15,028 nucleotides of DNA from Naegleria gruberi. Its lineage: Eukaryota. The DNA is taken from NCBI GenBank assembly GCA_000004985.1, contig GG738983.1; one strand, given 5' to 3'. Positions 1 through 15,028 of this stretch are shown piece by piece; position 1 is the stretch's first letter, and the number at the start of each line of letters is the position of its first letter. Both the position numbers and the translations under genes were made by a program. The notes under the pieces were generated by a model. It was not told where the DNA came from. It saw only the letters and a program-made list of their open reading frames with translations, and did no database searches.

Positions 1-628
1 TATTATCATTAATATTTAAATCATGATTATATTCATCAGATAAAGATATAGCCATATCTAAAATAGATCTATAACCAGTACATCTACATAAATTACCATC
101 TAAAGATAATTCAATTTGTTTAATTGTAGGCTTTGAATAATTTCTTAATAAGGAATATAAACTCATAATAATACCAGGTGTACAAAAACCACATTGTAAA
201 GCATTAAATTAAACAACTTTACTTTTTAATAAAGTTAAAATTGAATCTTGTTTAATACCTTCTATAGTAATAATAGAACATCCATCTAAATGTATTAATG
301 GATATAAACAGGCATTAATAGAATAATTAATAATCTTATTTTGTAATGTATCATATTTAGATAACATTACAATACAACTACCACATCCACCTTCTGAACA
401 ACCTATTTTAGTACCTGTTAATTTTAAATATTCTCTCAAATATTCTGCTAAATTTAATTTAATTAATAAATTATTTAATTTTAATTCAATACGTTCACCA
501 TTAACATAAAATAATATTTTACTATTATTATTATTTGTATTATTATTTTCAAGTTGAACTTGATCATCATTAAAATTGAAAGTTAATGATGCTGATGATG
601 ATTTAATATCATTATTATTGATTATCAT
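1..628 (-). CDS. xdh: Xanthine dehydrogenase/aldehyde oxidase family protein, N-terminal part with two [2Fe-2S] iron-sulfur domains; partial, the 3' end runs beyond window position 1; single in-frame TAA at 209-211
   Basis: Minus-strand translation from ATG 628-626 gives [125 protein letters not shown]. This matches the plant-type ferredoxin-like 2Fe-2S domain of XDH/AOX (FxVNG..., TGTKxGCxEGGCGxCxVMxSxYD, NACL). After the TAA at 209-211 the same frame continues [51 protein letters not shown], the second 2Fe-2S motif (QCGFCTPG...[12 protein letters not shown]). The poly-Asn insert is low-complexity. The ORF-track start at 634 is a TTG; the first ATG is 628-626. Confidence 0.85.
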
Positions 629-639
629 TCTCAAGTTGT

Positions 640-900
640 TGATTTTAAATGATGATGAGGCTGATTGATGATGGCGTTGAAGATTTGCGATTAATTGGAG
701 AGAAAAAGTTACAGTAGTGTTGAGTTATTGTTTTTTCAACAGAGAAACACGAGTGGTGGAGAGGCTCAATATTGTTGAATGGTTCATGGATTCTGAAATT
801 GAGCGGAGCGGTTAGATCACAAACCATATTTGGCCGATCTATAGATATTTTTGCTCAACGTTTCCATTTCGGTAACACAAGGTTCATGGAATGAAAACAC
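640..900. other. GC-enriched island just upstream of the xdh start codon; function unknown (5' UTR/promoter, ncRNA or mobile-element remnant)
   Basis: Visibly less AT-rich than the flanks, with runs such as gagcggagcggttagatcacaaaccatatttggccgatc. The 10-mer ggttcatgga occurs at 781-790 and 881-890. A minus-strand ATG ORF (827..645) uses GC-rich codons (ccg, ctc, gct, tcg) that are atypical for the surrounding genes. No convincing tRNA/snRNA fold could be derived by eye. Confidence 0.3.
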
Positions 901-1150
901 TTAATTTTATTATTTATCAAATTTATTATTAAAATCGATGGTTGAGAAGAATTGTAGTAAATCTTCCCTTAATAAATGCAGAGGTGAACCCATGTCTAAA
1001 TTACCTGCTATTGGAGTTCATAAGGGATTAGACAAAAACTCGTAGTAGTTATACATTATTGTAAAAGTATTTGAAACTGATTCTTAATAATAGTGTGATC
1101 ATGAACATGTATTGAACTTGTTCCACATCAATTATTATTATAATAAAAAA

Positions 1151-4100
1151 NNNNNNNNNNNNNNNNNNNNNNNNNNNNNNNNNNNNNNNNNNNNNNNNNN
1201 NNNNNNNNNNNNNNNNNNNNNNNNNNNNNNNNNNNNNNNNNNNNNNNNNNNNNNNNNNNNNNNNNNNNNNNNNNNNNNNNNNNNNNNNNNNNNNNNNNNN
1301 NNNNNNNNNNNNNNNNNNNNNNNNNNNNNNNNNNNNNNNNNNNNNNNNNNNNNNNNNNNNNNNNNNNNNNNNNNNNNNNNNNNNNNNNNNNNNNNNNNNN
1401 NNNNNNNNNNNNNNNNNNNNNNNNNNNNNNNNNNNNNNNNNNNNNNNNNNNNNNNNNNNNNNNNNNNNNNNNNNNNNNNNNNNNNNNNNNNNNNNNNNNN
1501 NNNNNNNNNNNNNNNNNNNNNNNNNNNNNNNNNNNNNNNNNNNNNNNNNNNNNNNNNNNNNNNNNNNNNNNNNNNNNNNNNNNNNNNNNNNNNNNNNNNN
1601 NNNNNNNNNNNNNNNNNNNNNNNNNNNNNNNNNNNNNNNNNNNNNNNNNNNNNNNNNNNNNNNNNNNNNNNNNNNNNNNNNNNNNNNNNNNNNNNNNNNN
1701 NNNNNNNNNNNNNNNNNNNNNNNNNNNNNNNNNNNNNNNNNNNNNNNNNNNNNNNNNNNNNNNNNNNNNNNNNNNNNNNNNNNNNNNNNNNNNNNNNNNN
1801 NNNNNNNNNNNNNNNNNNNNNNNNNNNNNNNNNNNNNNNNNNNNNNNNNNNNNNNNNNNNNNNNNNNNNNNNNNNNNNNNNNNNNNNNNNNNNNNNNNNN
1901 NNNNNNNNNNNNNNNNNNNNNNNNNNNNNNNNNNNNNNNNNNNNNNNNNNNNNNNNNNNNNNNNNNNNNNNNNNNNNNNNNNNNNNNNNNNNNNNNNNNN
2001 NNNNNNNNNNNNNNNNNNNNNNNNNNNNNNNNNNNNNNNNNNNNNNNNNNNNNNNNNNNNNNNNNNNNNNNNNNNNNNNNNNNNNNNNNNNNNNNNNNNN
2101 NNNNNNNNNNNNNNNNNNNNNNNNNNNNNNNNNNNNNNNNNNNNNNNNNNNNNNNNNNNNNNNNNNNNNNNNNNNNNNNNNNNNNNNNNNNNNNNNNNNN
2201 NNNNNNNNNNNNNNNNNNNNNNNNNNNNNNNNNNNNNNNNNNNNNNNNNNNNNNNNNNNNNNNNNNNNNNNNNNNNNNNNNNNNNNNNNNNNNNNNNNNN
2301 NNNNNNNNNNNNNNNNNNNNNNNNNNNNNNNNNNNNNNNNNNNNNNNNNNNNNNNNNNNNNNNNNNNNNNNNNNNNNNNNNNNNNNNNNNNNNNNNNNNN
2401 NNNNNNNNNNNNNNNNNNNNNNNNNNNNNNNNNNNNNNNNNNNNNNNNNNNNNNNNNNNNNNNNNNNNNNNNNNNNNNNNNNNNNNNNNNNNNNNNNNNN
2501 NNNNNNNNNNNNNNNNNNNNNNNNNNNNNNNNNNNNNNNNNNNNNNNNNNNNNNNNNNNNNNNNNNNNNNNNNNNNNNNNNNNNNNNNNNNNNNNNNNNN
2601 NNNNNNNNNNNNNNNNNNNNNNNNNNNNNNNNNNNNNNNNNNNNNNNNNNNNNNNNNNNNNNNNNNNNNNNNNNNNNNNNNNNNNNNNNNNNNNNNNNNN
2701 NNNNNNNNNNNNNNNNNNNNNNNNNNNNNNNNNNNNNNNNNNNNNNNNNNNNNNNNNNNNNNNNNNNNNNNNNNNNNNNNNNNNNNNNNNNNNNNNNNNN
2801 NNNNNNNNNNNNNNNNNNNNNNNNNNNNNNNNNNNNNNNNNNNNNNNNNNNNNNNNNNNNNNNNNNNNNNNNNNNNNNNNNNNNNNNNNNNNNNNNNNNN
2901 NNNNNNNNNNNNNNNNNNNNNNNNNNNNNNNNNNNNNNNNNNNNNNNNNNNNNNNNNNNNNNNNNNNNNNNNNNNNNNNNNNNNNNNNNNNNNNNNNNNN
3001 NNNNNNNNNNNNNNNNNNNNNNNNNNNNNNNNNNNNNNNNNNNNNNNNNNNNNNNNNNNNNNNNNNNNNNNNNNNNNNNNNNNNNNNNNNNNNNNNNNNN
3101 NNNNNNNNNNNNNNNNNNNNNNNNNNNNNNNNNNNNNNNNNNNNNNNNNNNNNNNNNNNNNNNNNNNNNNNNNNNNNNNNNNNNNNNNNNNNNNNNNNNN
3201 NNNNNNNNNNNNNNNNNNNNNNNNNNNNNNNNNNNNNNNNNNNNNNNNNNNNNNNNNNNNNNNNNNNNNNNNNNNNNNNNNNNNNNNNNNNNNNNNNNNN
3301 NNNNNNNNNNNNNNNNNNNNNNNNNNNNNNNNNNNNNNNNNNNNNNNNNNNNNNNNNNNNNNNNNNNNNNNNNNNNNNNNNNNNNNNNNNNNNNNNNNNN
3401 NNNNNNNNNNNNNNNNNNNNNNNNNNNNNNNNNNNNNNNNNNNNNNNNNNNNNNNNNNNNNNNNNNNNNNNNNNNNNNNNNNNNNNNNNNNNNNNNNNNN
3501 NNNNNNNNNNNNNNNNNNNNNNNNNNNNNNNNNNNNNNNNNNNNNNNNNNNNNNNNNNNNNNNNNNNNNNNNNNNNNNNNNNNNNNNNNNNNNNNNNNNN
3601 NNNNNNNNNNNNNNNNNNNNNNNNNNNNNNNNNNNNNNNNNNNNNNNNNNNNNNNNNNNNNNNNNNNNNNNNNNNNNNNNNNNNNNNNNNNNNNNNNNNN
3701 NNNNNNNNNNNNNNNNNNNNNNNNNNNNNNNNNNNNNNNNNNNNNNNNNNNNNNNNNNNNNNNNNNNNNNNNNNNNNNNNNNNNNNNNNNNNNNNNNNNN
3801 NNNNNNNNNNNNNNNNNNNNNNNNNNNNNNNNNNNNNNNNNNNNNNNNNNNNNNNNNNNNNNNNNNNNNNNNNNNNNNNNNNNNNNNNNNNNNNNNNNNN
3901 NNNNNNNNNNNNNNNNNNNNNNNNNNNNNNNNNNNNNNNNNNNNNNNNNNNNNNNNNNNNNNNNNNNNNNNNNNNNNNNNNNNNNNNNNNNNNNNNNNNN
4001 NNNNNNNNNNNNNNNNNNNNNNNNNNNNNNNNNNNNNNNNNNNNNNNNNNNNNNNNNNNNNNNNNNNNNNNNNNNNNNNNNNNNNNNNNNNNNNNNNNNN

Positions 4101-6124
4101 NNNNNNNNNNNNNNNNNNNNNNNNNNNNNNNNNNNNNNNNNNNNNNNNNNNNNNNNNNNNNNNNNNNNNNNNNNNNNNNNNNNNNNNNNNNNNNNNNNNN
4201 NNNNNNNNNNNNNNNNNNNNNNNNNNNNNNNNNNNNNNNNNNNNNNNNNNNNNNNNNNNNNNNNNNNNNNNNNNNNNNNNNNNNNNNNNNNNNNNNNNNN
4301 NNNNNNNNNNNNNNNNNNNNNNNNNNNNNNNNNNNNNNNNNNNNNNNNNNNNNNNNNNNNNNNNNNNNNNNNNNNNNNNNNNNNNNNNNNNNNNNNNNNN
4401 NNNNNNNNNNNNNNNNNNNNNNNNNNNNNNNNNNNNNNNNNNNNNNNNNNNNNNNNNNNNNNNNNNNNNNNNNNNNNNNNNNNNNNNNNNNNNNNNNNNN
4501 NNNNNNNNNNNNNNNNNNNNNNNNNNNNNNNNNNNNNNNNNNNNNNNNNNNNNNNNNNNNNNNNNNNNNNNNNNNNNNNNNNNNNNNNNNNNNNNNNNNN
4601 NNNNNNNNNNNNNNNNNNNNNNNNNNNNNNNNNNNNNNNNNNNNNNNNNNNNNNNNNNNNNNNNNNNNNNNNNNNNNNNNNNNNNNNNNNNNNNNNNNNN
4701 NNNNNNNNNNNNNNNNNNNNNNNNNNNNNNNNNNNNNNNNNNNNNNNNNNNNNNNNNNNNNNNNNNNNNNNNNNNNNNNNNNNNNNNNNNNNNNNNNNNN
4801 NNNNNNNNNNNNNNNNNNNNNNNNNNNNNNNNNNNNNNNNNNNNNNNNNNNNNNNNNNNNNNNNNNNNNNNNNNNNNNNNNNNNNNNNNNNNNNNNNNNN
4901 NNNNNNNNNNNNNNNNNNNNNNNNNNNNNNNNNNNNNNNNNNNNNNNNNNNNNNNNNNNNNNNNNNNNNNNNNNNNNNNNNNNNNNNNNNNNNNNNNNNN
5001 NNNNNNNNNNNNNNNNNNNNNNNNNNNNNNNNNNNNNNNNNNNNNNNNNNNNNNNNNNNNNNNNNNNNNNNNNNNNNNNNNNNNNNNNNNNNNNNNNNNN
5101 NNNNNNNNNNNNNNNNNNNNNNNNNNNNNNNNNNNNNNNNNNNNNNNNNNNNNNNNNNNNNNNNNNNNNNNNNNNNNNNNNNNNNNNNNNNNNNNNNNNN
5201 NNNNNNNNNNNNNNNNNNNNNNNNNNNNNNNNNNNNNNNNNNNNNNNNNNNNNNNNNNNNNNNNNNNNNNNNNNNNNNNNNNNNNNNNNNNNNNNNNNNN
5301 NNNNNNNNNNNNNNNNNNNNNNNNNNNNNNNNNNNNNNNNNNNNNNNNNNNNNNNNNNNNNNNNNNNNNNNNNNNNNNNNNNNNNNNNNNNNNNNNNNNN
5401 NNNNNNNNNNNNNNNNNNNNNNNNNNNNNNNNNNNNNNNNNNNNNNNNNNNNNNNNNNNNNNNNNNNNNNNNNNNNNNNNNNNNNNNNNNNNNNNNNNNN
5501 NNNNNNNNNNNNNNNNNNNNNNNNNNNNNNNNNNNNNNNNNNNNNNNNNNNNNNNNNNNNNNNNNNNNNNNNNNNNNNNNNNNNNNNNNNNNNNNNNNNN
5601 NNNNNNNNNNNNNNNNNNNNNNNNNNNNNNNNNNNNNNNNNNNNNNNNNNNNNNNNNNNNNNNNNNNNNNNNNNNNNNNNNNNNNNNNNNNNNNNNNNNN
5701 NNNNNNNNNNNNNNNNNNNNNNNNNNNNNNNNNNNNNNNNNNNNNNNNNNNNNNNNNNNNNNNNNNNNNNNNNNNNNNNNNNNNNNNNNNNNNNNNNNNN
5801 NNNNNNNNNNNNNNNNNNNNNNNNNNNNNNNNNNNNNNNNNNNNNNNNNNNNNNNNNNNNNNNNNNNNNNNNNNNNNNNNNNNNNNNNNNNNNNNNNNNN
5901 NNNNNNNNNNNNNNNNNNNNNNNNNNNNNNNNNNNNNNNNNNNNNNNNNNNNNNNNNNNNNNNNNNNNNNNNNNNNNNNNNNNNNNNNNNNNNNNNNNNN
6001 NNNNNNNNNNNNNNNNNNNNNNNNNNNNNNNNNNNNNNNNNNNNNNNNNNNNNNNNNNNNNNNNNNNNNNNNNNNNNNNNNNNNNNNNNNNNNNNNNNNN
6101 NNNNNNNNNNNNNNNNNNNNNNNN
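1151..6124. other. Assembly gap (run of 4974 N)
   Basis: Uninterrupted n characters. All ORF-track entries spanning it (1049..6127, 1112..6154, 1128..6161) are poly-X artifacts. Confidence 0.99.
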
Positions 6125-6468
6125 CATACCTTTTCAAGCTCCAGAAATTCGTAAAAAGCAAAACTATGATGAAAAGATTGACATTTACAGTCTTGGGGCT
6201 ACTTTATTGTATCTCAAAAACAAGACCTCATATGAAATAATCTGTAAAAAAGACGAATTTGATCTTCAAGTTGACATGCAAACACTCCAATGGGATGATT
6301 TTAAATTTGGAAAAAATATTGGAAATGGTTAATGAAGATCCAAAGAAAAGACCTTCAGCTCAAGAGCTTGCCGATTATTTTACTACTCTTTACAACAACC
6401 CACAAACAACAAACGCAGAAACTAAAGACCAAGAAGATTTCGAAATGCTTTATGATCAAGAAAGATAA
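6125..6468 (+). CDS. Protein kinase, C-terminal lobe only (subdomains VIII-XI); the 5' part is lost in gap 1. The reading frame shifts by +1 between about 6290 and 6330 (frame 0 stops at 6330-6332, frame 1 continues to the stop at 6466-6468).
   Basis: Frame starting at 6126 reads IPFQAPEIRKKQNYDEKIDIYSLGATLLYLKNKTSYEIICKKDEFDLQVDMQTLQWDDFKFGKNIGNG*. This holds the APE motif and the D-x-W-S-x-G-like subdomain IX (DIYSLG). The frame containing 6259 reads ...ILNLEKILEMVNEDPKKRPSAQELADYFTTLYNNPQTTNAETKDQEDFEMLYDQER*, the subdomain XI DPxxRP motif. Removing one A from the A6 run at 6311-6316 gives the continuous ...WDDFKFGKILEMVNEDPKKRPSAQELADYF. Confidence 0.8.
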
Positions 6469-6912
6469 AAAGGTTAGCAAACAAATTGAAGATATTGAAA
6501 TAACATTTAGAACATTGCCTTAATTGGAAAGAATCCTGTTGGAATATTTTCAAATGGTAAAGGTGTCAAATCTTTCCAAAACTTTAAAATCAATTGAGAC
6601 ATTTGAAAGATTGACAACTCTTTCTACCCAAATTCATAATTCCATTTGCAACGATCTACTTCTCTTTTCCTTAATATCTCAAATCTTTTGCCAATCTTTG
6701 CAAAAATGATAAAACTTTTGCAAATTTGTTTACAAAATCTTACAATGGATCATATTTTACCAATAAATTATGAATTTCAGATGGATTTACATTCTAAAAG
6801 TAAAACACCTCCTTTATCAAATGGGAGTTTGATTATTCTACTAACCTGATATTTCATTGTGATCGGTATTAATGAGAAGGAATTAAATTATATTTAAAAT
6901 ATTTTAAAAAAA

Positions 6913-7980
6913 ATGTCTGAAGATTGGGTTTGTTTTGTGATGCAATTTTATTAATGGGTGTGATGACCATCACAAATAACAGGCCGATAGGACGTATGTG
7001 TTGGAAGCTGTTAAACAACGTGGAAATGCACTTGAATATGTAGATGAATCATTTAAAAAAGATAGAGAATTTATATTGGAAGCTGTAAAACATAATGGAT
7101 GGGAACTTTTATATGTTGATTCATCATTGAAAAAAGATAGGGAAATTGTATTGGAAGCTGTTAAACATAATGGATCAGCTCTCGAATATGCTGATTCATC
7201 ATTGAAAAAAGATAGAGAAATTGTACTGGAAGCTGTTAAACAAAATGGATCAGCACTTAAATATGCTGATTCATTATTTAAAAGAGATAGAGAAATTGTA
7301 TTGGAATTTGTTAAACATAATGGATCAGCACTTAAATATGTTGATTCTTCATTGAAAAAAGATAGAGAAATTGTATTGGAAGCTGTTAAACAATGTGGAC
7401 ATGCAGTTCAATATGCTGATTTATTCATTGAAAAAAGATAGAGAAATTGTATTGGAAGCTGTTAAACAATGTGGACATGCAGTTGAATATGCTGATTATT
7501 ATTCAAAAAGATAGAGAAATTGTATTGGAATCTGTTAAACAAAATGGATCAGCACTTGTATATGCTGATTCATCATTTAAAAAAGATAGAGAAATTGTAT
7601 TGGAAGCTGTTAAACAACATGAATTGGCACTTGAATATGCTGATTCATCTTTACAAAGAGATATCGTTTTTATATATTCACTTTTTAAATTGAACAAAGA
7701 AAATACAAGAAGCTTCTCACCCTCTATAACCAAAACCATTGAAGAAGCCAATATTAATCTTCAGAGAAAGCTGTCAAGCAATATAATTGAACAGCAATAC
7801 TCCAAAATATTTATGGATGAAAAGGATTTATATTATGCTATTGAATTAACAAGTCTCTTTAATCCAACACCAAAAGGTACAATATTCAATTTCAATTCTA
7901 TCTATACACCAATATTTGTTGAAAAGCTTGATTATTTTCCAAATATTGAAACGAATGAACCATTCAGAATTATCCACTGA
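6913..7980 (+). CDS. DUF4116-like tandem-repeat protein (about 8 copies of a 31-aa repeat, consensus SALEYADSSLKKDREIVLEAVKQNG) plus a non-repetitive roughly 100-aa C-terminal tail. Proposed model is join(6913..6927, 6983..7980) with a 55-nt intron. The frame is disrupted by a +1 indel near 7427 and a -2 indel near 7487 (net -1).
   Basis: ORF-track pieces 6998..7441 and 7447..7980 both encode the same 31-aa repeat (LEAVKxNGxALxYxDSSLKKDREIV). The first piece has no internal Met, and an in-frame TAA at 6977-6979 lies just upstream, so a spliced 5' exon is needed. aaaaaaaATGTCTGAAGATTGG (6913-6927) followed by GTTTGT...AATAACAG (6928-6982) joins in frame to GCC GAT AGG ACG TAT... The protein ends at TGA 7978-7980, just before gap 2. 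The name DUF4116 is assigned from memory of the Pfam repeat motif (ALxYAxxxLxxDxExVLxAVxxNG), not from a search. Confidence 0.7.
6928..6982 (+). other. Putative 55-nt intron of the DUF4116-like gene (GTTTGT...AACAG); an alternative donor at 6937 (GTGATG) gives a 46-nt intron
   Basis: Inferred only from the need to join an ATG-containing exon to the Met-less repeat ORF in the same phase. The donor is non-canonical. It contains a small inverted repeat gtgatg-ac-catcac (6961-6974). Confidence 0.35.
7001..7670 (+). repeat. In-frame coding tandem array of 93-bp units (about 7.5 copies, roughly 85-95% identical). Units 5 (7373-7466) and 6 (7467-7557) are near-identical duplicates (QCGHAV variant), 94 and 91 nt long.
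   Basis: Direct reading of the sequence. ttggaagctgttaaacaa...gattcatcattgaaaaaagatagagaaattgta recurs with a 93-nt period. Unit 5 has gatttattcattg where the canonical unit has gattcatcattg (+1). Unit 6 has gattattattcaaaaagatagag where the canonical unit has gattcatcattgaaaaaagatagag (-2). Confidence 0.9.
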
Positions 7981-8000
7981 AACTCTTCTTTCAGCCAACT

Positions 8001-11000
8001 NNNNNNNNNNNNNNNNNNNNNNNNNNNNNNNNNNNNNNNNNNNNNNNNNNNNNNNNNNNNNNNNNNNNNNNNNNNNNNNNNNNNNNNNNNNNNNNNNNNN
8101 NNNNNNNNNNNNNNNNNNNNNNNNNNNNNNNNNNNNNNNNNNNNNNNNNNNNNNNNNNNNNNNNNNNNNNNNNNNNNNNNNNNNNNNNNNNNNNNNNNNN
8201 NNNNNNNNNNNNNNNNNNNNNNNNNNNNNNNNNNNNNNNNNNNNNNNNNNNNNNNNNNNNNNNNNNNNNNNNNNNNNNNNNNNNNNNNNNNNNNNNNNNN
8301 NNNNNNNNNNNNNNNNNNNNNNNNNNNNNNNNNNNNNNNNNNNNNNNNNNNNNNNNNNNNNNNNNNNNNNNNNNNNNNNNNNNNNNNNNNNNNNNNNNNN
8401 NNNNNNNNNNNNNNNNNNNNNNNNNNNNNNNNNNNNNNNNNNNNNNNNNNNNNNNNNNNNNNNNNNNNNNNNNNNNNNNNNNNNNNNNNNNNNNNNNNNN
8501 NNNNNNNNNNNNNNNNNNNNNNNNNNNNNNNNNNNNNNNNNNNNNNNNNNNNNNNNNNNNNNNNNNNNNNNNNNNNNNNNNNNNNNNNNNNNNNNNNNNN
8601 NNNNNNNNNNNNNNNNNNNNNNNNNNNNNNNNNNNNNNNNNNNNNNNNNNNNNNNNNNNNNNNNNNNNNNNNNNNNNNNNNNNNNNNNNNNNNNNNNNNN
8701 NNNNNNNNNNNNNNNNNNNNNNNNNNNNNNNNNNNNNNNNNNNNNNNNNNNNNNNNNNNNNNNNNNNNNNNNNNNNNNNNNNNNNNNNNNNNNNNNNNNN
8801 NNNNNNNNNNNNNNNNNNNNNNNNNNNNNNNNNNNNNNNNNNNNNNNNNNNNNNNNNNNNNNNNNNNNNNNNNNNNNNNNNNNNNNNNNNNNNNNNNNNN
8901 NNNNNNNNNNNNNNNNNNNNNNNNNNNNNNNNNNNNNNNNNNNNNNNNNNNNNNNNNNNNNNNNNNNNNNNNNNNNNNNNNNNNNNNNNNNNNNNNNNNN
9001 NNNNNNNNNNNNNNNNNNNNNNNNNNNNNNNNNNNNNNNNNNNNNNNNNNNNNNNNNNNNNNNNNNNNNNNNNNNNNNNNNNNNNNNNNNNNNNNNNNNN
9101 NNNNNNNNNNNNNNNNNNNNNNNNNNNNNNNNNNNNNNNNNNNNNNNNNNNNNNNNNNNNNNNNNNNNNNNNNNNNNNNNNNNNNNNNNNNNNNNNNNNN
9201 NNNNNNNNNNNNNNNNNNNNNNNNNNNNNNNNNNNNNNNNNNNNNNNNNNNNNNNNNNNNNNNNNNNNNNNNNNNNNNNNNNNNNNNNNNNNNNNNNNNN
9301 NNNNNNNNNNNNNNNNNNNNNNNNNNNNNNNNNNNNNNNNNNNNNNNNNNNNNNNNNNNNNNNNNNNNNNNNNNNNNNNNNNNNNNNNNNNNNNNNNNNN
9401 NNNNNNNNNNNNNNNNNNNNNNNNNNNNNNNNNNNNNNNNNNNNNNNNNNNNNNNNNNNNNNNNNNNNNNNNNNNNNNNNNNNNNNNNNNNNNNNNNNNN
9501 NNNNNNNNNNNNNNNNNNNNNNNNNNNNNNNNNNNNNNNNNNNNNNNNNNNNNNNNNNNNNNNNNNNNNNNNNNNNNNNNNNNNNNNNNNNNNNNNNNNN
9601 NNNNNNNNNNNNNNNNNNNNNNNNNNNNNNNNNNNNNNNNNNNNNNNNNNNNNNNNNNNNNNNNNNNNNNNNNNNNNNNNNNNNNNNNNNNNNNNNNNNN
9701 NNNNNNNNNNNNNNNNNNNNNNNNNNNNNNNNNNNNNNNNNNNNNNNNNNNNNNNNNNNNNNNNNNNNNNNNNNNNNNNNNNNNNNNNNNNNNNNNNNNN
9801 NNNNNNNNNNNNNNNNNNNNNNNNNNNNNNNNNNNNNNNNNNNNNNNNNNNNNNNNNNNNNNNNNNNNNNNNNNNNNNNNNNNNNNNNNNNNNNNNNNNN
9901 NNNNNNNNNNNNNNNNNNNNNNNNNNNNNNNNNNNNNNNNNNNNNNNNNNNNNNNNNNNNNNNNNNNNNNNNNNNNNNNNNNNNNNNNNNNNNNNNNNNN
10001 NNNNNNNNNNNNNNNNNNNNNNNNNNNNNNNNNNNNNNNNNNNNNNNNNNNNNNNNNNNNNNNNNNNNNNNNNNNNNNNNNNNNNNNNNNNNNNNNNNNN
10101 NNNNNNNNNNNNNNNNNNNNNNNNNNNNNNNNNNNNNNNNNNNNNNNNNNNNNNNNNNNNNNNNNNNNNNNNNNNNNNNNNNNNNNNNNNNNNNNNNNNN
10201 NNNNNNNNNNNNNNNNNNNNNNNNNNNNNNNNNNNNNNNNNNNNNNNNNNNNNNNNNNNNNNNNNNNNNNNNNNNNNNNNNNNNNNNNNNNNNNNNNNNN
10301 NNNNNNNNNNNNNNNNNNNNNNNNNNNNNNNNNNNNNNNNNNNNNNNNNNNNNNNNNNNNNNNNNNNNNNNNNNNNNNNNNNNNNNNNNNNNNNNNNNNN
10401 NNNNNNNNNNNNNNNNNNNNNNNNNNNNNNNNNNNNNNNNNNNNNNNNNNNNNNNNNNNNNNNNNNNNNNNNNNNNNNNNNNNNNNNNNNNNNNNNNNNN
10501 NNNNNNNNNNNNNNNNNNNNNNNNNNNNNNNNNNNNNNNNNNNNNNNNNNNNNNNNNNNNNNNNNNNNNNNNNNNNNNNNNNNNNNNNNNNNNNNNNNNN
10601 NNNNNNNNNNNNNNNNNNNNNNNNNNNNNNNNNNNNNNNNNNNNNNNNNNNNNNNNNNNNNNNNNNNNNNNNNNNNNNNNNNNNNNNNNNNNNNNNNNNN
10701 NNNNNNNNNNNNNNNNNNNNNNNNNNNNNNNNNNNNNNNNNNNNNNNNNNNNNNNNNNNNNNNNNNNNNNNNNNNNNNNNNNNNNNNNNNNNNNNNNNNN
10801 NNNNNNNNNNNNNNNNNNNNNNNNNNNNNNNNNNNNNNNNNNNNNNNNNNNNNNNNNNNNNNNNNNNNNNNNNNNNNNNNNNNNNNNNNNNNNNNNNNNN
10901 NNNNNNNNNNNNNNNNNNNNNNNNNNNNNNNNNNNNNNNNNNNNNNNNNNNNNNNNNNNNNNNNNNNNNNNNNNNNNNNNNNNNNNNNNNNNNNNNNNNN

Positions 11001-12527
11001 NNNNNNNNNNNNNNNNNNNNNNNNNNNNNNNNNNNNNNNNNNNNNNNNNNNNNNNNNNNNNNNNNNNNNNNNNNNNNNNNNNNNNNNNNNNNNNNNNNNN
11101 NNNNNNNNNNNNNNNNNNNNNNNNNNNNNNNNNNNNNNNNNNNNNNNNNNNNNNNNNNNNNNNNNNNNNNNNNNNNNNNNNNNNNNNNNNNNNNNNNNNN
11201 NNNNNNNNNNNNNNNNNNNNNNNNNNNNNNNNNNNNNNNNNNNNNNNNNNNNNNNNNNNNNNNNNNNNNNNNNNNNNNNNNNNNNNNNNNNNNNNNNNNN
11301 NNNNNNNNNNNNNNNNNNNNNNNNNNNNNNNNNNNNNNNNNNNNNNNNNNNNNNNNNNNNNNNNNNNNNNNNNNNNNNNNNNNNNNNNNNNNNNNNNNNN
11401 NNNNNNNNNNNNNNNNNNNNNNNNNNNNNNNNNNNNNNNNNNNNNNNNNNNNNNNNNNNNNNNNNNNNNNNNNNNNNNNNNNNNNNNNNNNNNNNNNNNN
11501 NNNNNNNNNNNNNNNNNNNNNNNNNNNNNNNNNNNNNNNNNNNNNNNNNNNNNNNNNNNNNNNNNNNNNNNNNNNNNNNNNNNNNNNNNNNNNNNNNNNN
11601 NNNNNNNNNNNNNNNNNNNNNNNNNNNNNNNNNNNNNNNNNNNNNNNNNNNNNNNNNNNNNNNNNNNNNNNNNNNNNNNNNNNNNNNNNNNNNNNNNNNN
11701 NNNNNNNNNNNNNNNNNNNNNNNNNNNNNNNNNNNNNNNNNNNNNNNNNNNNNNNNNNNNNNNNNNNNNNNNNNNNNNNNNNNNNNNNNNNNNNNNNNNN
11801 NNNNNNNNNNNNNNNNNNNNNNNNNNNNNNNNNNNNNNNNNNNNNNNNNNNNNNNNNNNNNNNNNNNNNNNNNNNNNNNNNNNNNNNNNNNNNNNNNNNN
11901 NNNNNNNNNNNNNNNNNNNNNNNNNNNNNNNNNNNNNNNNNNNNNNNNNNNNNNNNNNNNNNNNNNNNNNNNNNNNNNNNNNNNNNNNNNNNNNNNNNNN
12001 NNNNNNNNNNNNNNNNNNNNNNNNNNNNNNNNNNNNNNNNNNNNNNNNNNNNNNNNNNNNNNNNNNNNNNNNNNNNNNNNNNNNNNNNNNNNNNNNNNNN
12101 NNNNNNNNNNNNNNNNNNNNNNNNNNNNNNNNNNNNNNNNNNNNNNNNNNNNNNNNNNNNNNNNNNNNNNNNNNNNNNNNNNNNNNNNNNNNNNNNNNNN
12201 NNNNNNNNNNNNNNNNNNNNNNNNNNNNNNNNNNNNNNNNNNNNNNNNNNNNNNNNNNNNNNNNNNNNNNNNNNNNNNNNNNNNNNNNNNNNNNNNNNNN
12301 NNNNNNNNNNNNNNNNNNNNNNNNNNNNNNNNNNNNNNNNNNNNNNNNNNNNNNNNNNNNNNNNNNNNNNNNNNNNNNNNNNNNNNNNNNNNNNNNNNNN
12401 NNNNNNNNNNNNNNNNNNNNNNNNNNNNNNNNNNNNNNNNNNNNNNNNNNNNNNNNNNNNNNNNNNNNNNNNNNNNNNNNNNNNNNNNNNNNNNNNNNNN
12501 NNNNNNNNNNNNNNNNNNNNNNNNNNN
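8001..12527. other. Assembly gap (run of 4527 N). It swallows the 3' end of the minus-strand Cys-rich gene and lies just downstream of the DUF4116-like gene stop.
   Basis: Uninterrupted n characters. ORF-track entries 7916..12532, 7991..12547 and the 7846..12527 portion of 7846..15021 are artifacts. Confidence 0.99.
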
Positions 12528-15028
12528 TGTAATTGTAATTTTGACAATAATTATTATTAGAAATTAAACTAATGTAAATTGGAACTGTCAAGGTAAGAAC
12601 AACTCCAGAAGAATCTAATTGTTGAGTGACTCTTGAATCAGAAATCAAATCAGAAATAGAAGTAGAAATAGAATATTGAGTTTCACATGTCAATTGACTT
12701 GTAGAATTTGTGACAAGATCAGTAACATTTCTTTCACAAGTAGAAATTTCAGAGAATGATAATCTTGTCATGTTTGTAGATCTTGAAAGAATATTAGAAA
12801 CTGAAATGGTATACATAATCTTTGAAGATCCTAAATTTGTAACTGAAACCTTTGGCGGAGAATTAATAAACGAAAGACAATTCTCCGTCTGAATTTCACA
12901 CATTGAACCACTTGAATATGGAGGACATGTGAGACAAGATGTGGAATTGATACAACTTTCACATGTAGATGGACAAGTATTACTACAATCTGAACCATAT
13001 AATCCATTAAAACATTTAGAACATTGATTTGGAGATGAACATGTAATGCAATTCTCATTACAAACTGGAATTTGACATGTTGGACCTGTCCATCCAGATC
13101 TACATGTTGAACATGATACCTCTGATGAACATGATTTGCAATTAGATGGGCATGTTATATTACAATAACTTCCATAATATCCTTCATTACATTCTAAACA
13201 ATCACCTGTACTTGTTGAACAGGTTGCACAATTGGAAACTTTACAAACTTTCTCATTACAATATTGACCTTTCAAACCATCTAAACACTTATTACATGTT
13301 TCACTTGATGAACATACTTCACAATTAACTAAACATTTGAGTCTACATAATTTAGAAGTATCATAAAATCCACTCTTACATGATTGACAATTAGATGCAG
13401 ATGGAAGACAATTAGAAACTGAACTAATCTCACAATTAGTACCATTATATCCATTTGGACATGAACAATTATTAGGTGAGAGACATGAACCAATACCAGA
13501 ACATACACTAGCAACATCAGCTCTCTTTCCACCACAAATTGGAACTTCACAATTAATTCCTGCATAACCTGTTTTACAATAACACATATCCATCTCTTCA
13601 CAAATTCCATTTCCACTACATACATTAGGATCTGAATCAAATAATCCATTACACATGGTTGGTGAATAAATAATATTTCCAATAACTTGCTTTCCACCAC
13701 CACCTCCCCATATCGTACCTGTAGTAGGTGAATTTGTTCCTGGATATGGAAATTTATAGAAATCTCCTAGAATGTAATTATTACCATTATATGCTGTGAA
13801 CAAAAGAGAGTTATAATTTTGTATGAATGTTATTCTAGTGATTCTCTCAGATGTTCCAATAAATGATGTAGATAAGAGTGTTGGATAGGAAACTCTTGGT
13901 AGTAATGACCCCCAGTAACCTGTGTAAAATATTTTTCCACTCTCCATTAGATACAATACGAAATATTGTGCAAAAGTAATGGACAAGAGAATTTCACTTC
14001 CAAAAGTAGTAATATCTAATTCCAGTGGTGAATATTGGCAAAGGCCAGTATTTGTACCGTAGTAACTATCAGAAATTGGACCCCAACCATATAATCTTCT
14101 TGATTCTCTACTGTAAGCGAAACATAAATATCGAGAATGGCAAGAAAGGTATGAAATTTTGTGTGGAATAGCTAATTTTGTAAAGTTGGTTTTGTAAACT
14201 CCAAAAAATCCACTTGGACAACATCCAGCAACAGATAATTCACCAAAAGATCTAACATTTCCTTCTTTAGTCAAAAAAAAGGAAAAGTAATTATTTGTAT
14301 AAACATCAATAAATGTCTCATTAATACCAGTATTGTATATCATTGTTGGAGAAATAGGGAATGAAACATAAGGACTTTGTGGAGTAATTATTAAAATACC
14401 TGGAACAGATGTTGTTGCCATGAATAATGTAGAGGAACTAGATAGACTTGTAAAAGGTGCAAATGTAGCATTATTGAAAAGTAATGTACTACTTGCAGCT
14501 GCAGACTGTGTTGGAAGCGTAAAGCCGAATATAACATCTCTTCTATTTCCAATGCTGAAAAAGCCATTTGATTCAAAATATCTAATACGATATGGTAAGA
14601 CTCCATCAATTCCAGCGGTAGTTGTAATTGTAGATCTAAAATAATTTGGACCAGTTGAGCAAGTTTGTCCAGTAAAACCAGCATCACATTTTGTGCAAGT
14701 CTTATCATCTGAACAAGTCAAACAATTAGGAATGCATGTAAAAGAACAAGTAGCACCAAATGTTCTTGGTAAACATGATGAACACAAATATGGTGTTGAA
14801 CATTTAAGGCAATTTTCTGGACAAATAACTGAGGAACAATTAACGCCTCCATAACCAGAGTTACAAACACAAACACCGTCAATACATTGACCATTCGCAC
14901 AATTGGTACATTTAGGTGCACATGTTGGTGGTGGAGAGGATGTTATAGAATTCTTACATGTCAAACAACTTGTTGCACTCTTACATGTTAAACAATTAGG
15001 ATTACAATAGAATTGACACAATGGACCG
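12528..15028 (-). CDS. Large cysteine-rich secreted/surface protein, partial at both ends (5' end beyond window position 15028, 3' end in gap 2). Contains tenascin/EGF-like and furin-like Cys repeats, a central RCC1-like beta-propeller-like domain, a second EGF-like repeat array, an S/T-rich stalk and a hydrophobic segment.
   Basis: Continuous minus-strand ORF from 15021 down to the gap edge (about 830 codons) with standard-code Gln codons throughout. It opens with repeats such as CNPNCLTCKSATSCLTCKNS and CPENCLKCSTPYLCSSCLPRTFGATCSFTCIPNCLTCSDDKTCTKCDAGFTGQTC, and later CPSNCKSCSSEVSCSTCRSGWTGPTCQIPVCNENCITCSSPNQCSKCFNGLYGSDC (period about 31-32 aa). N-x-S/T sequons are frequent (NATF, NFTK, NETF, NITC, NGTN, NSTS, NMTR, NVTD). 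Confidence 0.85.
12562..12603 (-). other. Hydrophobic segment VVLTLTVPIYISLI (candidate transmembrane helix) immediately before the gap edge
   Basis: 14 mostly aliphatic residues following the S/T-rich stalk and followed by SNNNYCQNYNY. The usual basic stop-transfer residues are not visible because the sequence enters the gap. Confidence 0.35.
12604..12894 (-). other. Ser/Thr-rich, N-glycosylation-sequon-dense stalk-like region
   Basis: LSFINSPPKVSVTNLGSSKIMYTISVSNILSRSTNMTRLSFSEISTCERNVTDLVTNSTSQLTCETQYSISTSISDLISDSRVTQQLDSSG. It is low in Cys, and S+T exceed 35% by eye. Confidence 0.55.
12895..13656 (-). repeat. Second EGF/tenascin-like repeat array (about 8 units of 31-32 aa)
   Basis: Runs from MCNGLFDSDPNVCSGNGICEEMDMCYCKTGYAGINCEVPICGG through CPSTCESCINSTSCLTCPPYSSGSMCEIQTENC with regular 6-8 Cys per unit and G-x-x-G-x-x-C endings. 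Confidence 0.75.
13657..14646 (-). other. Central Cys-poor domain of about 330 aa with RCC1-like repeat signatures (putative beta-propeller), ending in a GGGGG linker (13695-13709)
   Basis: Motifs RRLYGWGPISDSYYGTNTGLCQYSPLEL, AQYFVLYLMESGKIFYTGYWGSLLP and NYFSFFLTKEGNVRSFGELSVAGC match the RCC1/BLIP-II blade pattern (hs-ala-Lt-dG-kvYtWG-n-GqLG...P). Inference from motif memory only. Confidence 0.4.
14647..15028 (-). repeat. N-terminal (in this window) tenascin/EGF-like cysteine-rich repeat block of the Cys-rich protein
   Basis: C-x2-C-x(4-6)-C-x2-C-x(5-8)-G-x2-C spacing repeated at least 4 times, ending ...CTKCDAGFTGQTCSTGP. Confidence 0.7.

What the first reader, a model, noticed from the sequence alone, without database searches (positions are those of the whole stretch)
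203..217. Single in-frame TAA between the two [2Fe-2S] domains of the xdh-family gene
Both flanking segments are clearly in the same frame and strongly conserved. TIEGI lies about 15 codons upstream of the stop and QCGFCTPG 5 codons downstream. The human XDH spacing between these motifs (about 20 residues) is matched here, at 19 codons including the stop, so this is not an intron: no GT...AG fits and the length is conserved. The candidates are a base-call error, a recent pseudogenising nonsense mutation in an otherwise intact gene, or translational readthrough. The other two genes in this window carry homopolymer indels, but this disruption is a substitution, which makes it stand out.
Basis: partly seen in the sequence, partly recalled or inferred. 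Interest (0 to 1): 0.5.

Follow-up and report, generated by a model that had tools for sequence, protein, structure and literature searches.

The report
Lone stop codon in draft XDH-like gene
The single in-frame TAA is really in the sequence, but it lies in a read-sized contig of a gap-filled mini-scaffold of the Naegleria gruberi Sanger draft, at a variable protein position one base away from the expected Glu or Leu codon, so it is most likely a base-call error or a very recent nonsense mutation and not a recoding signal.

Summary
On the minus strand an XDH-family ORF starts at ATG 628-626 and runs off the window at position 1. It has one in-frame TAA (211-209) and no other stop in 209 codons. 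There is no intron at the TAA.

The window is a whole 15,028-bp unplaced scaffold of the Naegleria gruberi NEG-M Sanger draft. It consists of three contigs of 1.15, 1.9 and 2.5 kb; N runs make up 63% of it. The middle contig has three frame breaks in two genes.

The stop falls in a column that is variable in 68 homologues. Naegleria and Willaertia have E or L there, so GAA or TTA to TAA needs one base change. All eight Fe-S cysteines are intact.

Nothing supports recoding. TAA appears once in 1,482 in-frame codons, against 45 CAA/CAG. The following UUU-AAU context matches no readthrough motif as I recall them, and there is no downstream RNA structure (z = +0.22).

The gene is an extra, roughly 2x faster-evolving, strongly AT-driven paralogue, so a real recent nonsense mutation is the serious rival. 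My estimates: draft error about 0.55, real young pseudogene or nonsense allele about 0.38, recoding 0.03 or less. Only reads can decide. This is an ordinary finding of low interest.

The parts
1..628 (-). 5' part (209 codons) of an XDH/aldehyde-oxidase-family gene. The ATG is at 628-626 and the gene runs off the scaffold end at position 1.
   Evidence: Translation. Bovine and rat XDH match at E about 1e-48. Pfam finds Fer2 and Fer2_2. The closest homologues are the full-length Willaertia magna XDH and Naegleria proteins.
209..211 (-). The in-frame TAA (codon 140), the only stop in the 209 codons.
   Evidence: The column aligns with E in N. fowleri, N. gruberi P0285 and W. magna, L in N. gruberi P0001, and K/R in mammals.
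269..520 (-). N-terminal plant-type [2Fe-2S] domain (residues about 37-120) with its four Cys ligands ([10 protein letters not shown]...NAC) intact.
   Evidence: Pfam PF00111. C77, C82, C85 and C107 are invariant columns.
56..268 (-). Second [2Fe-2S] domain (Fer2_2, residues 121-191). It contains the stop at codon 140 and intact QCGFC and CRC ligands.
   Evidence: Pfam PF01799, E 3e-24, residues 121-191. C146, C149, C181 and C183 are invariant.
1151..6124 (.). Scaffold gap of 4,974 N.
8001..12527 (.). Scaffold gap of 4,527 N.
6126..6468 (+). Protein-kinase C-lobe fragment with a +1 frame break near 6295-6307. It serves as context for sequence quality.
6998..7980 (+). DUF4116 repeat gene made of 75-nt tandem units. 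Units at 7385 (76 nt) and 7461 (73 nt) break the frame.
12529..15027 (-). Intact 833-codon EGF/RCC1-like open frame. It is 99% identical to the published N. gruberi protein P0275 and so identifies the source of the window.

Best explanation
The TAA is a single-base error in a low-coverage part of a draft assembly. The real codon is a sense codon, most likely GAA (Glu) or TTA (Leu), and the gene is a divergent but functional extra XDH-family paralogue of Naegleria gruberi. Shown: the window is a complete 15-kb unplaced N. gruberi scaffold made of three read-sized contigs; the stop column is variable and one substitution away from the residues its relatives use; the rest of the visible gene is fully conserved where it must be; there is no sign of recoding. 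Inferred: that depth and base quality at 209-211 are low.
For: The source is identified. The P0275 model uses window 14976-12586 and 7901-7836. N. gruberi NEG-M was sequenced by Sanger (PMC9928731). Its assembly has 1,977 contigs in 784 scaffolds with a contig N50 of 159,679 bp (PMC6125883). The contigs here are 1.15, 1.88 and 2.5 kb, and 63% of the window is N. The middle contig has three frame-breaking lesions in two unrelated genes within 1.9 kb. The XDH fragment has one stop and no frameshift in 209 codons, while its other frames carry 8-42 stops. All 8 Cys ligands and all 43 columns invariant among 10 homologues are kept. The stop column is variable: E14, K13, A10, L4, R4, Q3 and others in 59 homologues, and E, E, E, L in the Naegleria/Willaertia copies. 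GAA, TTA, AAA and CAA are each one substitution from TAA. Of all possible substitutions in this fragment, 7.2% give a stop, and TTA alone accounts for 28 of 209 codons. The TAA lies at a TTT/AA run junction, so TTTTA or TTAAA read as TTTAA would be a run-boundary miscall.
Against: No reads or quality values could be examined, so low depth at this base is inferred, not shown. Position 210 could lie in the good part of a read that starts at the contig end. The copy evolves about twice as fast as its relatives. It has replaced nearly invariant G126, H132 and Q135 just upstream of the stop. That is what relaxed constraint would look like. GAA to TAA is a G:C to T:A change, in the direction of the strong AT pressure seen in this gene. 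The DUF4116 lesions are complex and fall in the same sub-segment of two sister repeat units, which looks more like real mutation than random error and so weakens the 'bad sequence nearby' argument.
Confidence: 0.55

Rival explanations
1. The TAA is real. It is a recent nonsense mutation in a redundant, fast-evolving, AT-driven extra XDH paralogue, which is therefore a young pseudogene or a nonsense allele in the NEG-M strain. The truncated 139-residue product would carry only the first Fe-S domain.
For: N. gruberi has at least two other XDH-family loci: P0285 (1,668 aa, full domain set) and P0001. The copy may therefore be dispensable. In Tajima relative-rate counts the window lineage has 20-35 unique changes against 7-14 for each other heterolobosean copy, while control pairs are balanced. 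It has 14 lineage-specific replacements at columns conserved in at least 6 of 7 heterolobosean homologues, against 2-8 for the others. All are directional: 9 to FYMINK and none from, 7 from GARP and none to. GC3 is 0.05. Three of six departures from highly conserved columns lie within 14 residues upstream of the stop. GAA to TAA follows the AT bias. Neighbouring genes on the scaffold are also disrupted. No protein model for this fragment appeared in the protein database.
Against: There is only one lesion in 627 nt of very homopolymer-rich sequence. All ligands and invariant residues are kept. The copy was therefore under purifying selection until very recently, and catching a gene with exactly one lesion is a narrow time window. 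The assembly context makes an error at least as likely. The rest of the gene lies outside the scaffold and could not be checked.
Confidence: 0.38
2. The TAA is real and is read through (programmed stop-codon readthrough or a suppressor tRNA), giving a full-length enzyme.
For: The sequence downstream of the stop is perfectly conserved coding sequence in the same frame. Readthrough would predict that too.
Against: From established knowledge, UAA is the least leaky stop codon. The context UAA-UUU-AAU matches neither the CARYYA-type nor the CUAG-type readthrough motif. The 112 nt from the stop onward fold no better than shuffles (z = +0.22). All 68 aligned homologues have a sense codon in this column, and the column itself is not conserved.
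Confidence: 0.03
3. TAA is a sense codon in this organism (a variant genetic code).
For: None beyond the single codon.
Against: Across 1,482 in-frame codons in four genes of the window there is 1 internal TAA, 0 TAG and 0 TGA, against 41 CAA and 4 CAG, 71 GAA and 79 TAT/TAC. The kinase ORF ends on TAA. N. gruberi uses the standard code (established knowledge). The published protein P0275 matches a standard-code translation.
Confidence: 0.01
4. The stop lies in a small unrecognised intron.
For: The W. magna homologue has a 70-nt phase-0 intron only 5 codons downstream, between Q and C of SQ|CGFC.
Against: In the window the codons run straight through that site (FNALQCGFC). The segment around the stop aligns residue for residue with homologues ([14 protein letters not shown] against MLHLIQQRVRLFHAS) and is 2 residues shorter, not longer. 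The only GT...AG pair that spans the stop (GTAAAG...ATGAG) would delete QCGFCTPG.
Confidence: 0.01

Closest known systems
Eukaryotic xanthine dehydrogenase/aldehyde oxidase family (for example bovine XDH 1FO4/3UNA; Willaertia magna KAL9651081.1; N. gruberi P0285)
   Same: The N-terminal architecture is the same: a plant-type [2Fe-2S] domain followed by a Fer2_2 domain. All eight Cys ligands are present. Identity over the Fe-S core is 49-60%.
   Different: The gene is interrupted by TAA at codon 140. It is unusually AT-rich (GC3 0.05) and evolves about 2x faster. It has lost the nearly invariant G126, H132 and Q135 of the EGIG...LHPxQ segment. It lacks the intron that W. magna has at SQ|CGFC. 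The FAD and Moco parts are not in the window.
Consensus errors in low-coverage contigs of Sanger whole-genome shotgun drafts
   Same: The setting matches: read-sized contigs joined by gaps of about 5 kb sized from mate pairs, at the bottom of the assembly's size range, with other frame-breaking lesions in neighbouring genes.
   Different: The lesion here is a substitution rather than an indel, and no quality data could be seen.
Young unitary or duplicate pseudogenes with a single nonsense mutation
   Same: It is a redundant paralogue with faster evolution and a single disabling lesion in the direction of the mutational bias.
   Different: No second lesion is visible and the catalytic ligands are all kept. 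Whether the mutation is in the DNA at all is unproven.
Programmed stop-codon readthrough (TMV-type UAG-CARYYA; metazoan UGA-CUAG)
   Same: There is in-frame conserved coding sequence downstream of a stop.
   Different: The stop codon is the wrong one, the context is wrong, there is no structure, and the stop is not conserved in any homologue.

Membership tests
XDH/aldehyde oxidase (molybdo-flavoenzyme) family | N-terminal plant-type [2Fe-2S] domain with four Cys ligands | tested here: met
   Pfam PF00111 matches. C77, C82, C85 and C107 lie in invariant columns.
XDH/aldehyde oxidase (molybdo-flavoenzyme) family | Second [2Fe-2S] domain (Fer2_2) with CxxC...CxC ligands | tested here: met
   Pfam PF01799 matches at E 3e-24. 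QCGFC and CRC are present. The domain is interrupted by the TAA at codon 140.
XDH/aldehyde oxidase (molybdo-flavoenzyme) family | FAD-binding domain and two molybdopterin-binding domains downstream | not testable with these tools
   The gene runs off the scaffold at position 1. The closest full-length relatives (W. magna P0123, N. gruberi P0285) have them.
XDH/aldehyde oxidase (molybdo-flavoenzyme) family | Uninterrupted reading frame | tested here: not met
   There is one in-frame TAA at 211-209 in the sequence as given.
Programmed stop-codon readthrough | Leaky stop codon with a known stimulatory 3' context | tested here: not met
   UAA-UUU-AAU matches neither CARYYA nor CUAG. The motifs are taken from established knowledge.
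Programmed stop-codon readthrough | Stimulatory downstream RNA structure | tested here: not met
   MFE is -12 kcal/mol against a shuffle mean of -12.6; z = +0.22.
Programmed stop-codon readthrough | Stop codon conserved at the same position in orthologues | tested here: not met
   All 59 + 9 aligned homologues have a sense residue, and the column is variable.
Variant genetic code (TAA as a sense codon) | Recurrent in-frame TAA in many genes | tested here: not met
   There is 1 TAA in 1,482 in-frame codons and none in an 833-codon ORF, against 45 canonical Gln codons.
Pseudogene | Disabling lesion present in the genomic DNA | not testable with these tools
   No reads or second assembly of N. 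gruberi were reachable.
Pseudogene | Relaxed constraint (faster evolution, loss of conserved residues, several lesions) | tested here: inconclusive
   The copy has about twice as many unique changes as its relatives and departs from 6 of 49 conserved columns against a median of 2. But there is only one lesion, all ligands are kept, and the changes follow the AT bias.
Spliceosomal intron | GT...AG segment in excess of the homologous protein length | tested here: not met
   There is no insertion relative to homologues. The segment is 1-2 residues shorter and aligns through the stop.

The most novel reading that the evidence does not exclude
The TAA is truly in the N. gruberi genome and the paralogue is still expressed as a full-length enzyme through low-level or regulated UAA readthrough. 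That would be the first such recoding event described in a heterolobosean.
Probability: 0.02. Interest if true: 0.5.

Novelty: not a real feature. Interest (0 to 1): 0.07.

Why it matters
It matters little. If the TAA is an error, it only flags a low-quality mini-scaffold in an old draft, plus an unannotated third XDH-family locus in N. gruberi. If it is real, it is an ordinary young pseudogene of a redundant paralogue. The useful by-products are these: N. gruberi carries an extra, strongly AT-driven, fast-evolving XDH-like copy that has no gene model, and the published model on this scaffold (P0275) is spliced across an N gap.

Tried and rejected
- Exact-protein look-ups of the 139-aa N-terminal ORF, of N. 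gruberi P0001 and of P0275 found nothing on record. I therefore could not obtain the rest of the gene, the P0001 locus or any independent assembly.
- The first word-indexed protein search listed only proteins of 358 aa or fewer and missed the full-length heterolobosean XDHs. The exhaustive representative search and a search with W. magna P0123 were needed to find them.
- The first alignment of DUF4116 units used guessed coordinates and was out of register. I redid it by anchoring on GTTAAACA.
- Rfam and tRNA scans of the window found nothing.
- The N. gruberi genome paper (PubMed 20211133) is not held. Assembly facts come from PMC9928731 and PMC6125883 instead.
- I considered compensating frameshifts across the poorly conserved 19-codon segment. 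The other two frames there are full of stops and show no XDH-like sequence (read), so I rejected this.
- I considered re-initiation after the stop. The first downstream in-frame ATG is M155, after Cys146 and Cys149, so I rejected this.
- I considered contamination by a dictyostelid, because of the Asn tracts and 21% GC. I rejected it because the nearest relatives are heteroloboseans (56-60% identity) and D. purpureum XDH is only 47% identical.

Full report
**Observation.** The reverse complement of window 1-628 reads in one frame as [12 protein letters not shown]...[13 protein letters not shown]...[10 protein letters not shown]...NACLYPL...[37 protein letters not shown]...[15 protein letters not shown]...NINDN.
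- The TAA occupies window 211-209 on the minus strand and is the only stop in 209 codons.
- The other five frames of these 628 bases have 8-42 stops.
- Pfam finds Fer2 and Fer2_2.
- Bovine and rat XDH align at E about 1e-48, straight through the stop with no insertion.
- The stop is not between the two Fe-S domains. It lies inside the second one, five codons before its first Cys ligand.

**Where the window comes from.** The window is 63% N. It has three contigs (1-1150, 6125-8000, 12528-15028) separated by runs of 4,974 and 4,527 N.
- The 833-codon open frame on the third contig is 99% identical to a published 'predicted protein, partial [Naegleria gruberi]' (P0275).
- The P0275 model consists of window 14976-12586 spliced across the N gap to 7901-7836. 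The window is therefore one complete small unplaced scaffold of the N. gruberi NEG-M draft.
- That genome was sequenced by Sanger (PMC9928731). It has 1,977 contigs in 784 scaffolds with a contig N50 of 159,679 bp (PMC6125883).
- The contigs here are about 100 times shorter than that N50 and about the length of one to three reads. Low depth is an inference from this; I could not see reads.

**Neighbouring genes.**
- The middle contig holds a protein-kinase C-lobe fragment with a +1 frame break near 6295-6307.
- It also holds a DUF4116 gene made of 75-nt tandem units. Two adjacent units, of 76 and 73 nt, break the frame.
- The third contig's gene is intact.
- The scaffold therefore has three frame-breaking lesions in 1.9 kb next to 2.5 kb with none.
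- The two DUF4116 lesions are multi-base, fall in the same sub-segment of sister units and share a derived TATTC. Some of this damage may therefore be real rather than error.

**What the stop column should be.**
- In 59 homologues from an exhaustive HMMER search the column is variable: E14, K13, A10, L4, R4, Q3 and others.
- Among the closest relatives it is E in N. fowleri (REFNGSQCGFC), in N. gruberi P0285 and in W. magna. It is L in N. gruberi P0001 and N, S or M in Acrasis-like sequences. The window reads [11 protein letters not shown].
- GAA, TTA, AAA and CAA are each one substitution from TAA.
- The gene is extremely AT-rich: GC3 is 0.05 and TTA makes up 28 of 209 codons. Of all possible substitutions, 7.2% create a stop.
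- The TAA sits at a TTT/AA run junction, so TTTTA or TTAAA read as TTTAA would be a run-boundary miscall.

**Not an intron.**
- The W. magna gene does have a 70-nt phase-0 intron, 5 codons downstream, between Q and C of SQ|CGFC. The window reads straight through that site.
- The segment around the stop aligns residue for residue with homologues and is two residues shorter than theirs.
- The only GT...AG pair that spans the stop would delete QCGFCTPG.

**Not recoding.**
- Over 1,482 in-frame codons from four genes there is one internal TAA, no TAG and no TGA, against 41 CAA and 4 CAG. The kinase ORF ends on TAA.
- From established knowledge, UAA is the tightest stop, and UAA-UUU-AAU matches no known readthrough motif.
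- The 112 nt from the stop onward fold no better than shuffles (z = +0.22).
- No homologue has a stop at this column.
- The first downstream in-frame ATG (M155) lies after two of the Cys ligands, so re-initiation cannot rescue the second cluster.

**What kind of gene it is.**
- N. gruberi has a full-length XDH (P0285, 1,668 aa) and a second locus (P0001, a 358-aa model). The window copy is a third locus.
- Over the Fe-S core it is 56-60% identical to every heterolobosean copy, while those copies are 67-70% identical to each other.
- Tajima counts give it 20-35 unique changes against 7-14 for each other copy; control pairs are balanced.
- It departs from 6 of 49 columns that are at least 85% conserved (median 2, maximum 9). 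Three of these (G126K, H132T, Q135K) lie in the 14 residues before the stop.
- Its 14 lineage-specific replacements are all directional: 9 towards FYMINK and none away, 7 away from GARP and none towards. The divergence is driven by AT pressure.
- All eight Cys ligands and all 43 columns invariant among ten homologues are kept. The copy was therefore under purifying selection until very recently, or still is.

**Weighing the two serious explanations.**
- An error is favoured by the assembly context and by the single lesion in an otherwise well-kept frame.
- It is also favoured because a long-constrained gene spends little time in the 'just died, one lesion' state. A substitution error rate of about 1e-3 per base in such contigs would give a stop in these 627 bases about 5% of the time. 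That rate is my assumption, not a measurement.
- A real mutation is favoured by redundancy, faster evolution, the local loss of conserved residues, the AT-ward direction of GAA to TAA, and the possibly real lesions next door.
- My estimates are error about 0.55, real nonsense mutation about 0.38, readthrough about 0.03, and variant code or intron about 0.01 each. Under every reading except readthrough the finding is ordinary.

**What could not be done.** No reads, no second N. gruberi assembly and no sequence beyond position 1 were reachable. Whether the rest of the gene is intact is unknown.

Noticed in passing
window 1-15028: The window is a whole unplaced Naegleria gruberi NEG-M scaffold. 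It has three contigs of 1.15, 1.88 and 2.5 kb, and N runs (1151-6124 and 8001-12527) make up 63% of it.
   Followed up: yes
window 14976-12586 and 7901-7836, minus strand: The published N. gruberi protein model P0275 is spliced (GT...AG) across the 4.5-kb N gap. Its last exon is a 22-codon ORF lying antisense to the DUF4116 gene, which is almost certainly an annotation artefact.
   Followed up: yes
window 7010-7700, plus strand: The DUF4116 gene is built of nine 75-nt tandem units. Units 6 (7385, 76 nt) and 7 (7461, 73 nt) are sister copies that share CAATGTGGACATGCAGTT. Both break the frame in the same GATTCATCATTGAAAAAA sub-segment and share a derived TATTC, which suggests real mutation rather than random error.
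   Followed up: partly
window 6126-6468, plus strand: A protein-kinase C-lobe fragment is cut by the gap at its 5' end. It has a +1 frame break in T/A runs near 6295-6307 and ends on TAA at 6466-6468.
   Followed up: partly
window 1-628 compared with the other genes: The XDH-like fragment has GC3 of 0.05 and 36% FYMINK residues, against 22-28% in its homologues. The other genes on the scaffold have GC3 of 0.07-0.28. The locus appears to be under unusually strong AT pressure.
   Followed up: partly
L001 6407-6476 (Willaertia magna JBEGDK010000075.1): The W. magna XDH has a 70-nt phase-0 intron between Q and C of the SQ|CGFC ligand motif. The N. gruberi window copy has no intron there.
   Followed up: yes
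P0001 (N. gruberi, 358 aa): This model joins the two Fe-S domains of an XDH-like gene to a tail carrying Pfam PF16543, with no FAD or Moco domains. It is probably a mis-joined or truncated gene model. Its locus could not be fetched.
   Followed up: no
window 781-790 and 881-890: There is an exact 10-nt direct repeat, GGTTCATGGA, spaced 100 nt apart in the GC-richer stretch upstream of the XDH start codon. A two-copy repeat this short may be chance.
   Followed up: no
one search compared: The word-indexed protein search with a 209-aa query listed only proteins of 358 aa or fewer. It missed the full-length W. magna, N. fowleri and N. gruberi XDHs, which score as well or better. This is a candidate-selection bias to keep in mind.
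   Followed up: partly
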